64,000 bases of DNA from the NCBI RefSeq assembly GCF_964204865.1, contig NC_135255.1:9176001-9240000 (forward strand). Reading direction: 5' to 3'. Source of the stretch: Styela clava. Lineage: Eukaryota. Below are positions 12,001 through 45,000 of this stretch, one piece after another (position 1 is the stretch's first letter; each line of letters starts with the position of its first letter). Position numbers: made by a program.

Positions 12001-15000
12001 AGTTTGAACCAAAACATATGACATAACATGTGACATAAAATATCACATCTATTGTGAGTTCCCGTATTGATGTCAGCCCAAATCGCCATCAGCGCCCTCC
12101 AAGTTATCGCAAACGCCCACAAGGTGGCGTTTTCGCTCACTTTGGAAACCGCTGGTCTAATTAATATAAAATAAACACATAAAAAACAGTTTCCCTCCCA
12201 AGGCATTAAAGTCTATATCGCTGCATTGAGTCAATACAGTCCAGGTTTTTGAAAATGTATTCAATAAAAAAAATTGAGATTAAATTGTAAAACGAAGCGA
12301 TAAAAAACATTTCAGTAACTGAAGTAATAAAATATATATAAGATAATGGATTAAAATATAAACAGCAGATCACATTATATACACTGCAACCCAGCAATAC
12401 ACGCTATTTCATATTGTATTGTTGGAAGTTTTACCATGTTATTTCAAATAAGGTAGAATATTTAAAAAGTCAGGTTAACGTAAATGTTTATGGTCTATAG
12501 TTGACATATCACCAATGTTACAAACATGTTCTCATTTACATTCTATAGCTCGTGATAGGCAAAGCACTTTTCTATTTAAGCGAAAGCCCATAGCTCAAAT
12601 AGACAAGCACATGAGTGCATGCGGAAAAATATACTCAATGGAAGACAAATCATAGAAGCAGTTTGCCACACATTTCTAGGTGGATTTCTGCCATAATATT
12701 TATAAGGGTAAGTATATAATTTAAATGCTGTGCCTTCCAAGGACATGAAGAACCACACACACGCGTTTGCGATCAGTAAAAACATAACAGTGTTGCGAAT
12801 CCGGAGTCTTATTTTATTCGGAGCCGCAATTCTGGGACGTTCAACATATCTGGGCACAGGCTGAACTACTTGGGTCTGTATTTGGCCTTCATCATTATGA
12901 AATTGAACGTAAATATTGTCCACGTTTTCTATTTCCTCTTGTTTCTTCATGAGTGTAGTTTTTGTAGAAGATAATGACGAAACACCGGTCGAGCTGCCTT
13001 CCCCGCCATCCGATTGGTGAGTGCTAGAACTCGACTCTTGAGCATCCTCTATGACGTCACTATGTTTTATGGAACCGTCGATATCAACTTTTATAGACAT
13101 GTTTGTAGATTTCCTTTCTTCAACTGAATTTTCGTCACCGTCGAAAGCTCTGTTTGTAAAATCGTTGTGGTTGAGATCTTTTTGTTCTCTTGTCGAGGAA
13201 ACTTTTTTTAACTCGAACAATTCTTCCTTCTCAACAACTGGATGTCTGGATAATCCAGCGATTAGAAACATAACCTTCAAAGTATCAAAAGTGGGTTGAA
13301 ATTGTCAAAAGAACTTCTAAATTGCAGCCAAAACACACATGTTAAAACCTTTTTCACAGAAAAAGATTTAGGGGACGTTATTATTGAGTTCGGTCAAGCT
13401 TTTTCGAGCTTTTTTGAATTCTGATCAGATCAAAAATGAATTTTTTTTTGTCAGATTCGTGGCAAAGTTGTTGCTTTGTGCCGGTAGCCTACTCGCAAAA
13501 CCAATTATTTATCGCCTACAACCATGCATACTTACAGTTTTTCAATTTACCTTTCATATTCAGGCTCGAACAAAAATATATGCTCACGTGGAGTATGTAA
13601 TACAACATTTGTTAAGCACATTATGATTAATAAGTAAGCGGACTTTCGCAGAAAGTAACGATAAAAGTGACATGATACGTTACACTATTTTCATAAGCAT
13701 TTCAAACGCCCCATAATATGCATACCTGCACAATAATCTGCAGCAAATCGACGACAGGATAAACGACTCCCCAATACCACATTTCATCTGATATTATGGA
13801 TGCATATATAGCAAATGCATAAAATATATCGAGTGTAGCACTCCCAGTTATAGTAACAAGAAGAAGAACAACATCTAGATTAACGATTGAAATCACCGGT
13901 CGAGGTTCTCGATGAAATAGGTACAATCCGAATCCACAAGCCACCAGCATAAATACTTCTATTGCCACCTGAAATTGTAAAGATGTTATATTATTCATGA
14001 ATTGTGTTCCAGAATAAAAACTTGTGATGACAATATTGTGATAAATATGAGTGAGTTAGCTAAATGAAAAAAGCAGTAACAAAATGAATATTCAGACCGT
14101 ATTTAAATGTGTGGATTGATATTATGTTTGCTTCATATATAATTTAACGCAGCGAATTTGCATTCAATTTATGACAGACAGCAGTTTATTAATTTGTCCA
14201 CACTTTCTTGAAAAACCTAACTTCCTAACTACCACAGTGGTTATGCAAACCAGATTCTCACCTATTTTTTTACAATTGAATGATAGGATAATTAATTTTG
14301 CTAATATTCATTCCCGTCTTGTATCTGATATCAGACTATCAAGTCTGATAATATTACTACTTGTGCATTGTTTGTTTTGAAATTAATGTTCTGCCTATAT
14401 TATGCCTTTCAATCGATATCGATTAAATAATATTTGAAGGTAAACAACAGCCGGGAGCAGTTAGTTATGAAATGATTGGTAATAGTTTAAAAATATATTT
14501 ATCGCCAAATAACGCCATAATATAGTTTTAGTATCCGCAAAAAGAAGCCAAACGGTTTGTATTGTCTTTCTGTCGAATCTTTTCCATTCGATTTTGAATG
14601 TTACTGGAATATCGTTTCATAAAAAAAATATTTCAATCAGTCTGAAGAAAAAGTATATATATATGCTCTCCGTTTACTCGTTTTGGATATGAGAGAAATT
14701 ATATATATATTTGTTATATAGCAAAAACTATTTATATGTATATAACGATATGAAGTGGCAAGAATGTCAAACAAATAACAGATTTTGTGAAAATGTCACT
14801 AAATTTATTAATAAATGAGTTATCAGAATGCAAACACTTGTTTGTATTTACTTCAGATGAGACATCGACTAAACATAAGTGGAAATGTGTATTGCTTTAC
14901 GACAAAGAAACAATGATTAGATTCCTGTTGAGTCATTGCTAATAAAAGTGTGGTACCCCCAACAATGTAATGACATTTTCAAGATCGTTGCCTAGATGTA

Positions 15001-42000: not shown

Positions 42001-45000
42001 AGAGTGTTATGTATATGATGAATTCTCTGAAATGAAAAAGGAAAATAAGTTAAAATATATATTTCAGTTATCACTTCTTTTTTAACAGACACTTTTTCAA
42101 TATTCCGCAAATTACTTTTGCAAGGCATTAGGCAGTCAAACATTCCAGTAATGATATTTTGGGCTTGGTCATTGACTCTTTTCGTTTACCAAGAAACAGG
42201 GTCTTATCGACTTTGTTCCACTGCAATGATAGCTCGTAAATTACCATTCAAATAAAGCTGTCATGCTACATTTACCCGACCATATGCACGGGTTTTGGGC
42301 GATTAAATAAATATTCTAAGAAAAAAAGACGCTTACTTATAAAATAATTTATAAACGCTTCCTTTCCATCGTAGGAGTAGATTTGAGAAACCTCCTAATC
42401 TTGCATTTGCAACCTCGTGCGAATAAGTAACAGTCATGTTTTCTGTAACTTTTTTCACAATTCAAAAATATTAAAATTGTCCAAGTAATGAAAAATAAAC
42501 ACAAAGATATATATATCTATAGATATACATTATAGAATAATATGTATATTTAATAATAAAGTCTGCAGAACAAAAATTGATTCACATTATTAAATATCTA
42601 TCATATCTAGTGTTATCGGGAGGGGGCTCGGGCTCGCTGGGTTGTCCATAACCATAGTTTCTTTTTCTATGTTTGTTTGCGATTCTGCTATAAATTATAT
42701 GTTTCGCCCTTTAGCGCTACAATAATAAGCAAAAATATATTCCAATGCGACATCTACAAACATTTTTGCGCCTTCCAATTATAAACTACCATGTTGCAAG
42801 GACTTATCCAGTAACAGAAACTGACGCCACTCGAATATTATTCAAAAAGGCGTATTACTGCCGAATAGCAAGGATGGTTTTTTTATTATTCTGCATCGGG
42901 AGACGGAAATCACGACAAACTAGGCGTGCGACGCGCTAAAAATCAATCGATGTACCGATTTGTTGATACTAAATCATCTCGGAAATGAAAATAAGCATAT
43001 ATGCATCGAAGACGTAACTACTTACCATCTTGCAATGCAGTTTATCGTGACACAAAGGTTCACGATGGAAAATTGTTTCATTTTTGGAAACGGATTCGAA
43101 TGTGAATCTTTAGCTTCTAAATATCGCTGTGAATGAATAATCCGTACAATTTATTCTTTTAAAATTAGACTTGAAACGCAAATAAATTTCACACAAAGCT
43201 ATGTTATCGGCTTATGAACTTTTCTCTCCCCCGGGGATGAATATGTAAGTCCGATCCCATCAGATTTCCGATCGCAGATTACGCCACACCATTGCCGTGC
43301 GCTCTGATGAACCTATAATCCAGCCTACTGCACTGCGCATACATTATGCATTATAACACTCGAGCGAGCCTCATCGATATCTAATATCACTGCTTCAAAA
43401 TCTTGCGCTTTGCGGATGAATACTCTTGTTTCCCATGACTACACTCAAAACTATAACGACATTACAGAAATCAATATTTTCAATCCTCATCCTTCGACCA
43501 GAACAGGCTTATTTAATAAACCCCTTCCTAACTTATACTTTACATTTATATATTTTTCTACTTTACGACGAATCTAGTTTTTATCTTAAAATAAAGACCT
43601 TGACTTTCGTAATCATCTTGAATTTTTAACTATATTTCGAGTGGATTGTTCCCAACGTTTGAATTTATATTTTATCAACACGAAAATTACTTGTTCTTGT
43701 AACTTGGATTTCCAATTATTTTTCTTATAGTAGTCGAATAATCATATACTCGGTGTATACAGCGAAAAAAAAGATTTTCGTACCTGCTGCCTGCTACTCC
43801 GTTTCCCAGACTATTTGGTTCAACGTTTTTATAATCGAATTTAAAAAATATAATTTACCGGGTAAAGTCCACGGTATGTCATAAACGTACACATAAAATT
43901 TACACGCAGACATTAGTCACCCGACGTAACCGACTCGGTTGCCGTAGTCGCTTTGAAACGAGAAAGAACCATTTCGCAACATCGATTTTTTTCGGTGGAA
44001 CAAAAACAAAGCCGTAGTACGGTATGCTTTGTGTATGCCTCTCAGTGGAATATAATGATACGTTGCCAACGAAACTACTACACATGGCCTTATGCTACGC
44101 ATACTTGGTATGTCGGTGTACGATGACGCTAAGCTTCCGATTTCAGTTCGTCGGTTTCAACTGGACGGAGCCGGTTCACCATTGTACGCCGATCAGCTGA
44201 TTCAACGTCACGTCTTTTTGTAGCGACGCAACGAGAGAGAAATGTGAATTCCCAAAATAGTGCGCTTCGTCGATATGATGCAAATATTTGCCTACATACG
44301 GAGTCGCGGACTCGGCGAGCCTCAAGTGCGCGTTGTTAAATGTTGTGTACCTGGATACTGAAGTAAAATCCCAAAGTTCGTGGAGTAAGACTTGTTTTGT
44401 TTATAACTGTGTATGATCACCAAACAATGTAACGCGAACGTATGACGGTCTTTGCATTTTAGTAAAGGCATATTCACATATATTGCATTCAGGCATATAA
44501 TGCACATAATCCCTACGCATTTTTATCTTCCGTGGCTTTGAGCTATTGGCAATGTATAAGATAAGTGTTAGATTTTTGCGAGTTCTGATTTTTTCCAACA
44601 AAATTTTAGTATTTGCAGAAGAAAAATTTCCTAGCCTATTTGGAACATACCAACATTTTTCAAATGTTGTTGTTTGCTAAAAAATATTCTCTCTCGGGAG
44701 GTAATGGGCCAATCGATTTAAATTTTCGGGGCTCCCGAAGTATGCGAACCAAGATGGCGGACATCGGAATGTAATATGTGTACTAGGTTAGGGTTAGGCC
44801 ATAATTTTAGGTATAAATACTACGGGAGGCTCTTGGCTAGTCTTCGAACTGATGATAGGACTAAAATAAGGAAAATTGGAAAAAAATTATCGCCTAACCC
44901 TAACCTGTTACCCATGTTACGTTCCGATGTCCGCCATCTTGGTTCGCATACTTCGGGAGCACCAAATTTTCAATAAAGACGGAATGAAATCTACAACTTT

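What the first reader, a model, noticed from the sequence alone, without database searches (positions are those of the whole stretch)
12576..42437. Otopetrin + TspO-like membrane protein + bestrophin cluster: candidate linked H+/anion (acid-base) module
Seen: three consecutive genes within 30 kb all encode multi-pass membrane proteins. An otopetrin and a bestrophin lie on the same strand, flanking an uncharacterised TspO-like gene that is head-to-head with the otopetrin (~4 kb between start codons). Established: otopetrins are H+ channels, bestrophins conduct Cl-/HCO3-, and OTOP2 plus BEST4 co-mark a pH-sensing vertebrate gut cell type, where the two genes are unlinked. Inference: physical linkage here may reflect co-regulation in an acid-handling or calcifying cell type (for example ascidian acidic bladder cells, gut or otolith cells). 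Chance adjacency is entirely possible.
Basis: partly seen in the sequence, partly recalled or inferred. Interest (0 to 1): 0.66.

Follow-up and report, generated by a model that had tools for sequence, protein, structure and literature searches.

The report
Three adjacent sea-squirt membrane genes
An otopetrin proton-channel gene, an unnamed TspO-fold membrane-protein gene and a bestrophin anion-channel gene lie side by side in the sea squirt Styela clava, but nothing yet shows that this is more than ordinary gene order.

Summary
The window is Styela clava DNA, not human. It carries three intact, already annotated genes in the stated order and orientation. The otopetrin ('proton channel OTOP2-like') is on the minus strand, CDS 19358-12579, 8 coding exons. 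LOC120331753 is a 292-aa, 7-helix protein on the plus strand, CDS 23322-27160, 3 exons. The bestrophin LOC120331695 (1204 aa) is on the minus strand, CDS 42437-29534, 11 exons.

'TspO-like' is only weakly supported for the middle gene. It gives no Pfam or PDB sequence match. The AlphaFold model partly superposes on Bacillus TSPO, and 2 of 20 bacterial relatives give sub-threshold TspO_MBR hits.

The 'linked H+/anion module' reading could not be tested. No eukaryotic genome collection or expression data were available. The layout fits neither an operon nor a classical bidirectional promoter: start codons lie 3,963 bp apart, and the two channel genes are separated by a convergent gene. The passages I read of a paper on vertebrate OTOP loci name other neighbours, and its main text never mentions bestrophin.

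In random gene orders this specific pairing arose in 0.04-0.8% of runs. Tens of comparably suggestive transporter pairs are expected per genome.

Most likely: three independently regulated neighbours.

The parts
12576..19358 (-). Otopetrin gene (S. clava 'proton channel OTOP2-like', 645 aa), coding part, 8 coding exons
   Evidence: tblastn HSPs of P0033 lie at 19358-19179, 18972-18790, 18307-18104, 17879-17742, 17392-17195, 15689-15528, 13974-13714 and 13295-12579. The stop codon is 12576-12578. HSP ends overshoot the splice sites by a few residues. P0033 matches PF03189 at 4.5e-43. The best PDB match is chicken Otop3, 6nf6, at 2.8e-38. Hydropathy gives 12 hydrophobic segments.
19359..23321 (.). 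Head-to-head intergenic region between the otopetrin and middle-gene start codons (3,963 bp)
   Evidence: Rfam and tRNA scans found nothing. The 163-aa open frame at 20236-20727 (+) has no Pfam match. The positions of 5' UTR exons and promoters are unknown.
23322..27163 (+). LOC120331753: 292-aa, 7-helix membrane protein of an unnamed family with a TspO-like fold, 3 coding exons
   Evidence: tblastn HSPs of P0001 lie at 23322-23435, 24821-24982 and 26543-27160. The stop codon is 27161-27163. The AlphaFold2 model has pLDDT 91.0 and pTM 0.87. Foldseek against the PDB matches BcTSPO 4rym with probability 0.94, target-normalised TM 0.64 and E 1.3. There is no Pfam hit at E<=10.
27164..29530 (.). 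Tail-to-tail intergenic region between the middle gene and the bestrophin (2,367 bp)
29531..42437 (-). Bestrophin gene LOC120331695 (1204 aa), 11 coding exons: channel core of about 370 aa plus a tail of about 834 aa
   Evidence: tblastn HSPs of P0034 lie at 42437-42336, 42031-41879, 38620-38348, 37342-37184, 36100-36017, 34461-34291, 34007-33750, 33501-33130, 32248-31784, 31500-31180 and 30934-29534. PF01062 matches at 7.2e-139 over profile positions 1-323 of 324. Chicken BEST1 4rdq matches at 5.3e-160. The tail is rich in S, N, K and T. Its last exon has only 3 relatives at E<=0.001 among 1.84 billion representatives.

Best explanation
These are three intact, independently transcribed genes that simply lie next to each other in the Styela clava genome.

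(1) The otopetrin is a 12-segment membrane protein. By homology it most likely forms a dimeric proton-selective channel that lets H+ run down its gradient.

(2) LOC120331753 is a 7-helix protein of an unnamed family found in ascidians, non-mammalian vertebrates and bacteria. Its first five helices resemble the TspO/MBR fold. Its activity is unknown. By analogy it more likely binds a lipid or tetrapyrrole than conducts ions.

(3) The bestrophin is probably the ascidian pro-orthologue of vertebrate BEST1-4. By homology it is a pentameric Ca2+-activated anion (Cl-/HCO3-) channel, extended by a long, poorly conserved and probably disordered tail.

Each gene most likely has its own promoter, and the adjacency has no functional meaning.

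Shown here: gene identity, intactness and layout. Inferred: channel activities (from homology) and independent regulation (from layout and base rates).
For: - Identity and intactness.
- Layout: the two channel genes are not adjacent, because an opposite-strand gene lies between them, convergent with the bestrophin. The start codons of the divergent pair are 3,963 bp apart.
- Gene density is ordinary. S. clava has 340.42 Mb and 17,428 genes (PMC7540406, passages), about 19.5 kb per gene. Here there are three genes in 29.9 kb.
- Neighbouring genes are unrelated: a BAAT/acyl-CoA thioesterase-like gene, a DHDPS/HOGA1-like gene and a thioredoxin-domain gene.
- Base rates: 17-139 runs of three multi-pass genes and 10-73 close transporter pairs are expected by chance (assumed fractions).
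- Vertebrate OTOP loci: the passages read name other neighbours, and 'bestrophin' occurs 0 times in the main text of PMC3038909.
- In Gymnothorax javanicus the middle-gene homologue carries locus tag GJAV_G00094290 and one bestrophin carries GJAV_G00231730. These are far apart if tags follow gene order, which is an assumption, and this is only one bestrophin paralogue.
- The middle gene shows no sign of an ion-transport family.
Against: - The specific pairing is a priori rare. An otopetrin fell within two gene positions of a bestrophin in 0.04-0.77% of random orders.
- Ciona genomes carry a single bestrophin (PMC2292144, passage), so this may be the only bestrophin in the genome.
- The same two families co-mark one conserved vertebrate cell type.
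- Independent regulation was not measured. In a compact ascidian genome, enhancers can act over the few kilobases involved.
- No other tunicate genome could be examined, so conserved linkage is not excluded.
Confidence: 0.75

Rival explanations
1. The otopetrin and bestrophin, with the intervening gene, share enhancers or a chromatin domain. They are switched on together in a pH-sensing or acid/base-transporting cell. The otopetrin would pass H+ and the bestrophin Cl-/HCO3-. This would be an invertebrate-chordate counterpart of vertebrate BEST4+/OTOP2+ cells.
For: - Both families are core markers of one conserved vertebrate cell type (PMC12724568 passages; listing abstracts).
- The pairing is rare in random gene orders, 0.04-0.77%.
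- Both proteins keep most residues tied to function. The bestrophin keeps the acidic Ca2+-clasp run and two of the three neck residues, with a Val at the third (residue roles recalled). The otopetrin keeps the conserved Glu and His and most of both Q-N-Y triads.
- All three genes fit within 30 kb.
Against: - There is no expression, chromatin or synteny evidence of any kind.
- The gene between them belongs to no transport family.
- The pair was selected after the fact, among tens of chance transporter pairs expected per genome.
The passages read of PMC3038909 name other neighbours of the OTOP loci, and its main text never mentions bestrophin.
- The best4+ preprint states that these cells look vertebrate-specific, because fly and mosquito atlases lack them.
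- No paper links the two families in ascidians.
Confidence: 0.1
2. Only the head-to-head pair, the otopetrin and LOC120331753, is co-regulated from shared elements in the 3,963-bp region between their start codons. The bestrophin is an unrelated neighbour.
For: The two genes are divergent, with nothing recognisable between them. Rfam and tRNA scans found nothing, and the one long open frame there has no Pfam match. Divergent pairs often share regulatory DNA (general knowledge).
Against: About 4 kb between start codons is several times the usual limit of about 1 kb for bidirectional promoters (general knowledge). UTR exons were not mapped. There is no known functional link between TspO-like proteins and otopetrins. 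No comparative or expression data exist.
Confidence: 0.1
3. The adjacency is an inherited piece of ancient chordate gene order, conserved as microsynteny without shared function. It might be held together, for example, by a regulatory element of one gene lying inside another.
For: The bestrophin orthologue of a distant ascidian, Clavelina lepadiformis (P0035, 1307 aa), has the same core-plus-long-tail build and aligns to the same exons. The locus is therefore old within ascidians. The middle-gene family predates the tunicate-vertebrate split.
Against: There is no positional information for any other species. Tunicate genomes are known for extensive rearrangement (general knowledge). The passages read of PMC3038909 name other genes at vertebrate OTOP loci, and its main text never mentions bestrophin.
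Confidence: 0.08

Closest known systems
Vertebrate otopetrins OTOP1-3 (structures: chicken Otop3 6nf6, OTOP2 8ug6, zebrafish Otop1 6nf4)
   Same: The protein is a full Pfam PF03189 member. It aligns to 6nf6 over residues 22-435 and 572-643 and has 12 hydrophobic segments. The conserved Glu (zebrafish Otop1 E267) and His (H574), the Arg next to the C-domain Tyr position, both triad Asn and the C-domain Gln are all kept. These were read from the alignment against residues named in bioRxiv 10.1101/542308.
   Different: The N-domain triad reads E-N-F instead of Q-N-Y. The C-domain triad reads Q-N-F. A long acidic, Ser-rich loop precedes the last two helices (residues about 430-570). The NCBI label 'OTOP2-like' is a best-hit name, not a shown orthology. 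Proton conduction is untested.
Bestrophin Ca2+-activated anion channels (chicken BEST1 4rdq; BEST2 8d1e)
   Same: PF01062 is matched over 323 of 324 profile positions. Residues 2-389 align without gaps to chain residues 1-388 of 4rdq, E 5.3e-160. The acidic Ca2+-clasp run and neck positions F80 and F84 are conserved (residue roles recalled). Hydropathy gives four hydrophobic segments.
   Different: Neck position 76 is Val, not Ile. The aperture position (chicken V205) is Met. The tail of about 834 aa is far longer than those of the vertebrate proteins listed (557-763 aa in total) and is poorly conserved. Ciona has one bestrophin gene against four in vertebrates (PMC2292144).
TspO/MBR family (Pfam PF03073; Bacillus cereus TSPO 4rym/4ryi)
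   Same: BcTSPO gives the highest Foldseek probabilities in the PDB list: 0.94 and 0.69, with target-normalised TM 0.64 and 0.59 over about 181 columns. A bacterial Atlas cluster in which 20% of members carry PF03073 superposes at TM 0.75/0.87 over 250 residues. Two of the 20 bacterial relatives scanned give PF03073 hits of 19.9 and 17.9 bits.
   Different: P0001 and four vertebrate relatives give no PF03073 hit even at E<=10. Neither family profile gives a PDB sequence hit at E<=10. The Foldseek E-values are 1.3-2.2, and no PDB match reaches E<=0.001. The protein has seven helices against five in TspO. The bacterial hits fall below the 24-bit cut-off.
BEST4+/OTOP2+ (CFTR-high) intestinal cells of vertebrates
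   Same: The same two channel families are involved. The proposed logic is proton entry or pH sensing plus bicarbonate/chloride exit.
   Different: That is a co-expression program of unlinked genes in vertebrates. It also includes cftr, carbonic anhydrases and guanylins, and none of those is in this window. No ascidian counterpart has been described in the papers searched.

Membership tests
Otopetrin (PF03189) proton channels | Sequence match to the family model above the curated cut-off | tested here: met
   P0033 scores 148.2 bits against a cut-off of 27.8. Four of 7 window exon frames score above the cut-off on their own.
Otopetrin (PF03189) proton channels | Twelve transmembrane helices in two six-helix halves | tested here: met
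   Twelve hydrophobic segments remain after merging overlapping windows. The protein aligns to both halves of chicken Otop3 6nf6. No structure was predicted.
Otopetrin (PF03189) proton channels | Q-N-Y triad in each half, plus the conserved Glu and His at the intrasubunit interface (bioRxiv 10.1101/542308) | tested here: inconclusive
   Read by eye from the alignment, the triads are E-N-F and Q-N-F. Glu, His and Arg are kept. Whether Tyr-to-Phe and Gln-to-Glu changes matter for conduction is unknown.
Otopetrin (PF03189) proton channels | Proton-selective current | not testable with these tools
   This needs electrophysiology.
Bestrophin (PF01062) Ca2+-activated anion channels | Full-length match to the family model | tested here: met
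   The score is 462.9 bits over profile positions 1-323 of 324. Seven of 12 window frames hit on their own.
Bestrophin (PF01062) Ca2+-activated anion channels | Acidic Ca2+-clasp run and hydrophobic neck (I76/F80/F84 in BEST1; roles recalled, not from a call) | tested here: met
   The alignment to 4rdq shows the E-D-D-D-D run unchanged. The neck reads V/F/F.
Bestrophin (PF01062) Ca2+-activated anion channels | Pentameric assembly and anion (Cl-/HCO3-) conductance | not testable with these tools
   This is inferred only from homology to solved pentamers.
TspO/MBR (PF03073) | Sequence match to the family model | tested here: not met
   P0001 and four vertebrate relatives give no PF03073 hit at E<=10. 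Two of 20 bacterial relatives give hits below the cut-off. Neither family profile gives a PDB sequence hit.
TspO/MBR (PF03073) | Five-helix TspO fold | tested here: inconclusive
   The model has 7 helices. BcTSPO superposes at target-normalised TM 0.64 and probability 0.94, but with E 1.3. An Atlas structural neighbour has a 20% TspO_MBR share.
Co-regulated gene cluster (operon, bidirectional pair or conserved microsyntenic block) | Same-strand genes with nothing between them (ascidian operon), or start sites under about 1 kb apart (bidirectional promoter) | tested here: not met
   An opposite-strand gene separates the two channel genes. The start codons of the divergent pair are 3,963 bp apart. 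Transcription start sites were not mapped.
Co-regulated gene cluster (operon, bidirectional pair or conserved microsyntenic block) | Linkage conserved in related species | not testable with these tools
   No eukaryotic genome collection was available. The passages read of PMC3038909 name other genes at vertebrate OTOP loci, and its main text has 0 occurrences of 'bestrophin'.
Co-regulated gene cluster (operon, bidirectional pair or conserved microsyntenic block) | Overlapping expression | not testable with these tools
   No expression data were available. No relevant paper was found.

The most novel reading that the evidence does not exclude
The otopetrin-bestrophin linkage is conserved in tunicates and marks a shared regulatory domain active in one pH-sensing or acid/base-secreting cell type. 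Such a cell would be an invertebrate-chordate forerunner of vertebrate BEST4+/OTOP2+ gut cells, which are currently thought to be vertebrate-specific. The enclosed TspO-fold 7-helix protein would be an unrecognised third component.
Probability: 0.06. Interest if true: 0.65.

Novelty: already known. Interest (0 to 1): 0.2.

Why it matters
If the linkage were functional, it would move the origin of the BEST4+/OTOP2+ pH-sensing cell program back to the common ancestor of tunicates and vertebrates. It would also give a compact 30-kb locus in which to dissect its regulation.

As it stands, the window shows three ordinary, already annotated genes. The only mildly new point is descriptive. The middle gene belongs to an unnamed family of 7-helix proteins present in ascidians, sharks and rays, teleosts, reptiles and birds. 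None of the 32 hits is a mammal or an amphibian. The family has bacterial relatives, mainly Bacteroidota, and a distant likeness to the TspO fold.

Tried and rejected
- Microsynteny. I spent it on the middle-gene family.
- Literature on expression. Searches for otopetrin/bestrophin/ascidian, otopetrin + Ciona, Styela clava + otopetrin/bestrophin/OTOP2 (none of the 15 listed papers mentions S. clava), bestrophin + Ciona and the zebrafish clone names and S. clava LOC ids found nothing on co-expression. One search gave one unrelated paper in its listing, which I did not read. Supplementary marker tables, which could list the zebrafish homologues si:dkey-29d8.3 and si:ch211-161h7.5 or the S. clava gene families, were closed.
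- Naming the middle gene. These gave no accepted name: Pfam at E<=10, NCBIfam, PDB sequence searches with two profiles, Foldseek against the PDB and the Atlas. A fungal DUF1774 cluster (16% share, scores 0.79-0.85) and an oomycete 'MARVEL' cluster (TM 0.75/0.77) are leads only.
- Bacterial gene neighbourhoods of its relatives. I scanned 36 flanking ORFs, chosen from the 109 ORFs found in 18 loci. They are heterogeneous: an MFS transporter upstream in 3 loci, a PepSY_TM-flavodoxin reductase in 2, YidC in 2, and otherwise unrelated genes. They give no functional hint.
- Rfam and tRNA scans of the window found nothing.
- The bestrophin tail. Searching its last exon found only 3 relatives at E<=0.001, and no domain was found in the tail exons.

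
Full report
**What the window is.** The window has no N and about 31-40% G+C. Exon searches returned Styela clava RefSeq proteins at essentially full identity. It is therefore ascidian DNA, not human. Against those proteins, only 2/292, 10/645 and 17/1204 residues are unmatched by any tblastn segment. That fits another haplotype of a species reported to be 1.72% heterozygous (PMC7540406, passages).

**How the models were searched.** I searched the gene models exon by exon. 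Wherever a full-length protein was needed, I used the public proteins that the searches returned: P0001, P0033, P0034 and P0035.

**The otopetrin.**
- Eight collinear tblastn segments of P0033 ('proton channel OTOP2-like', 645 aa) run from 19358 down to 12579 on the minus strand.
- PF03189 is matched by 4 of the 7 exon frames submitted and by the whole protein at 4.5e-43.
- The closest solved structures are chicken Otop3 (6nf6, 2.8e-38), OTOP2 (8ug6) and zebrafish Otop1 (6nf4). Six distinct PDB sequences match in all.
- Hydropathy gives 12 segments after merging overlaps.
- I read the alignment against the residues named by Saotome et al. (bioRxiv 10.1101/542308, passages). The chain numbering is offset by one, consistently at all six triad sites. 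The N-domain Q-N-Y triad is E-N-F and the C-domain triad is Q-N-F. The conserved Glu and His at the intrasubunit interface and the neighbouring Arg are kept.
- It is a bona fide otopetrin. Proton conduction is inferred from homology.

**The bestrophin.**
- Eleven collinear segments of P0034 (LOC120331695, 1204 aa) run from 42437 down to 29534 on the minus strand.
- PF01062 is matched over 323 of 324 profile positions at 7.2e-139.
- Residues 2-389 align without gaps to chicken BEST1 4rdq at 5.3e-160.
- The acidic Ca2+-clasp run is unchanged. The neck reads V/F/F, and the aperture position (chicken V205) is Met. The roles of these residues are recalled, not taken from a call.
- The remaining 834 residues or so are rich in S, N, K and T and carry no Pfam domain.
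- The last exon (488-aa frame) has only 3 relatives at E<=0.001 among 1.84 billion representatives.
- Clavelina lepadiformis has a similarly long protein (P0035, 1307 aa). It aligns to the core exons and to one tail exon.
- Ciona genomes were reported to hold a single bestrophin (PMC2292144, passage). This gene is therefore probably the pro-orthologue of BEST1-4.

**The middle gene.**
- Three segments of P0001 (LOC120331753, 292 aa) run from 23322 to 27160 on the plus strand.
- The exon-3 search found 32 proteins at E<=0.001 among 633 candidates. They comprise the S. clava protein, 9 unnamed sequences (51-89% identical; I take them for other ascidians by their identity alone), 2 rays, 8 teleosts (some named si:dkey-29d8.3 or si:ch211-161h7.5), 1 alligator, 1 turtle and 10 birds. 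None is a mammal or an amphibian.
- P0001 and four vertebrate relatives match no Pfam family at E<=10.
- Neither family profile matches any PDB sequence at E<=10.
- The AlphaFold2 model built on 27 sequences is confident (pLDDT 91.0, pTM 0.87) and has seven long helices.
- Foldseek against the PDB finds nothing at E<=0.001. Bacillus cereus TSPO gives the highest probabilities. For 4rym: probability 0.94, target-normalised TM 0.64, 181 columns, 18% identity, E 1.3. For 4ryi: probability 0.69.
- The Atlas's own model superposes on a bacterial cluster in which 20% of members carry TspO_MBR, at TM 0.75/0.87 over 250 residues.
Most are Saprospiraceae, Lewinellaceae and Cytophagales, at 21-28% identity over most of the length.
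- Of the 20 ORFs I took from those loci, 2 give sub-threshold PF03073 hits: 19.9 and 17.9 bits against a cut-off of 24. None has an NCBIfam name.
- 'TspO-like' is therefore a fair description of the fold of the first five helices. The protein is not a demonstrable family member.
- Bacterial neighbourhoods are heterogeneous and uninformative.

**Layout.**
- The otopetrin and the middle gene are head-to-head, with 3,963 bp between start codons.
- The middle gene and the bestrophin are tail-to-tail, with 2,367 bp between stop codons.
- The whole span is 29,862 bp.
- The two channel genes share a strand but are separated by an opposite-strand gene. An ascidian-type operon is therefore excluded.
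- About 4 kb is well beyond a classical bidirectional promoter, although transcription start sites were not mapped.
- Flanking genes are unrelated. There is a BAAT/acyl-CoA thioesterase-like gene (953-9163, +), an intronless DHDPS/HOGA1-like frame (49527-50576, -) and a thioredoxin-domain gene (61378-63533, +).
- No carbonic anhydrase, CFTR or guanylin, the other core genes of BEST4+ cells, was seen in the frames scanned.

**Is it more than chance?**
- S. clava has 17,428 genes in 340.42 Mb, one per 19.5 kb or so. The density here is unremarkable.
- If 10-20% of genes are multi-pass, 17-139 runs of three are expected.
- With 2-10 otopetrins and 1-3 bestrophins, an otopetrin fell within two positions of a bestrophin in 0.04-0.77% of random orders.
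- With 300-800 transport genes, 10-73 pairs that close are expected.
- The fractions and family sizes are assumptions. Only Ciona's single bestrophin is documented.
- The specific pair is rare a priori, but it was chosen after looking. A story could be told for many of the pairs expected by chance.

**Comparative and literature evidence.**
best4, otop2, cftr, carbonic anhydrases and guanylins are the shared core of BEST4+ cells across vertebrates. Those cells are thought to be vertebrate-specific, because fly and mosquito atlases lack them (PMC12724568, passages).
- The passages read of the comparative study of vertebrate OTOP loci, which covers 100-kb flanks in 25 species, name Ush1g, Fads6, C17orf28 and DRD5. 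Its main text never mentions bestrophin (PMC3038909).
- The S. clava genome paper mentions neither family in its main text.
- No paper found links the two families in an ascidian. None mentions the middle gene's zebrafish clone names in a relevant context.
- Acid-storing tunic cells are described as peculiar to particular ascidian taxa (PMC5465252, passage). I found nothing for Styela.
- Supplements were closed. Marker tables there could bear on the zebrafish homologues.

**Verdict.** The functional-module reading is neither supported nor refutable with the tools at hand. On layout and base rates I put about 0.75 on three independently regulated neighbours, and about 0.1 on a co-regulated acid-base module. 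The decisive tests are microsynteny across tunicate assemblies and co-expression in S. clava or Ciona.

Noticed in passing
window 24924-24926 (+), exon 2 of LOC120331753: The window reads TTG (Leu) where the RefSeq protein has Trp69. That column is invariant in all 27 sequences of alignment A1. It is a single-base difference, and could be a polymorphism, a sequencing error or a damaging allele.
   Followed up: partly
window 23322-27163 (+); loci L001-L053: The middle gene belongs to an unnamed 7-helix family. Its members come from S. clava, 9 unnamed sequences I take for other ascidians, rays, teleosts, an alligator, a turtle and birds. None of the 32 hits is a mammal or an amphibian. It has bacterial relatives, mostly Saprospiraceae, Lewinellaceae and Cytophagales, at 21-28% identity.
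   Followed up: partly
window 18101-18421, 17192-17419 and 12576-13304 (-): The otopetrin's two Q-N-Y triads read E-N-F and Q-N-F. Both tyrosines are replaced by Phe, and the N-domain Gln by Glu. The conserved Glu, His and Arg remain.
   Followed up: partly
window 29531-33501 (-): The bestrophin carries a low-complexity tail of about 834 aa, spread over four exons. One tail exon (31180-31500) is 39% identical to the Clavelina orthologue. The last exon has almost no relatives.
   Followed up: partly
window 37184-37342 (-): The bestrophin residue aligned to the chicken BEST1 aperture position V205 is Met. Neck position 76 is Val rather than Ile (residue roles recalled).
   Followed up: no
window 49527-50576 (-): A single uninterrupted 349-aa frame matches the DHDPS family (PF00701, 2.8e-52), like 4-hydroxy-2-oxoglutarate aldolase. 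It appears intronless among multi-exon neighbours.
   Followed up: no
window 953-9163 (+) and 61378-63533 (+): Two flanking genes were seen. One is a BAAT/acyl-CoA thioesterase-like gene (PF04775 and PF08840 on three frames). The other is a thioredoxin-domain gene (PF00085 on one frame).
   Followed up: no
window 44718-44973; 38153-38302; 55192-55274; 41144-41273 and 45480-45609: Short dispersed repeats are present. One element has 91-nt inverted arms (88% complementary). Partial copies lie in a bestrophin intron and further downstream. A second 130-nt repeat (95% identical) lies in a bestrophin intron and upstream of the gene. These look like small transposon remnants.
   Followed up: no
window 47799-48153: A tandem repeat with copies spaced 101-102 bp apart (three overlapping 152-nt copies reported) stays open in both strands' frames.
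   Followed up: no
window 23504-24097 (-): A 197-codon stop-free frame lies in intron 1 of the middle gene. That is unusually long for DNA of about 35% G+C. It has no Pfam match.
   Followed up: partly
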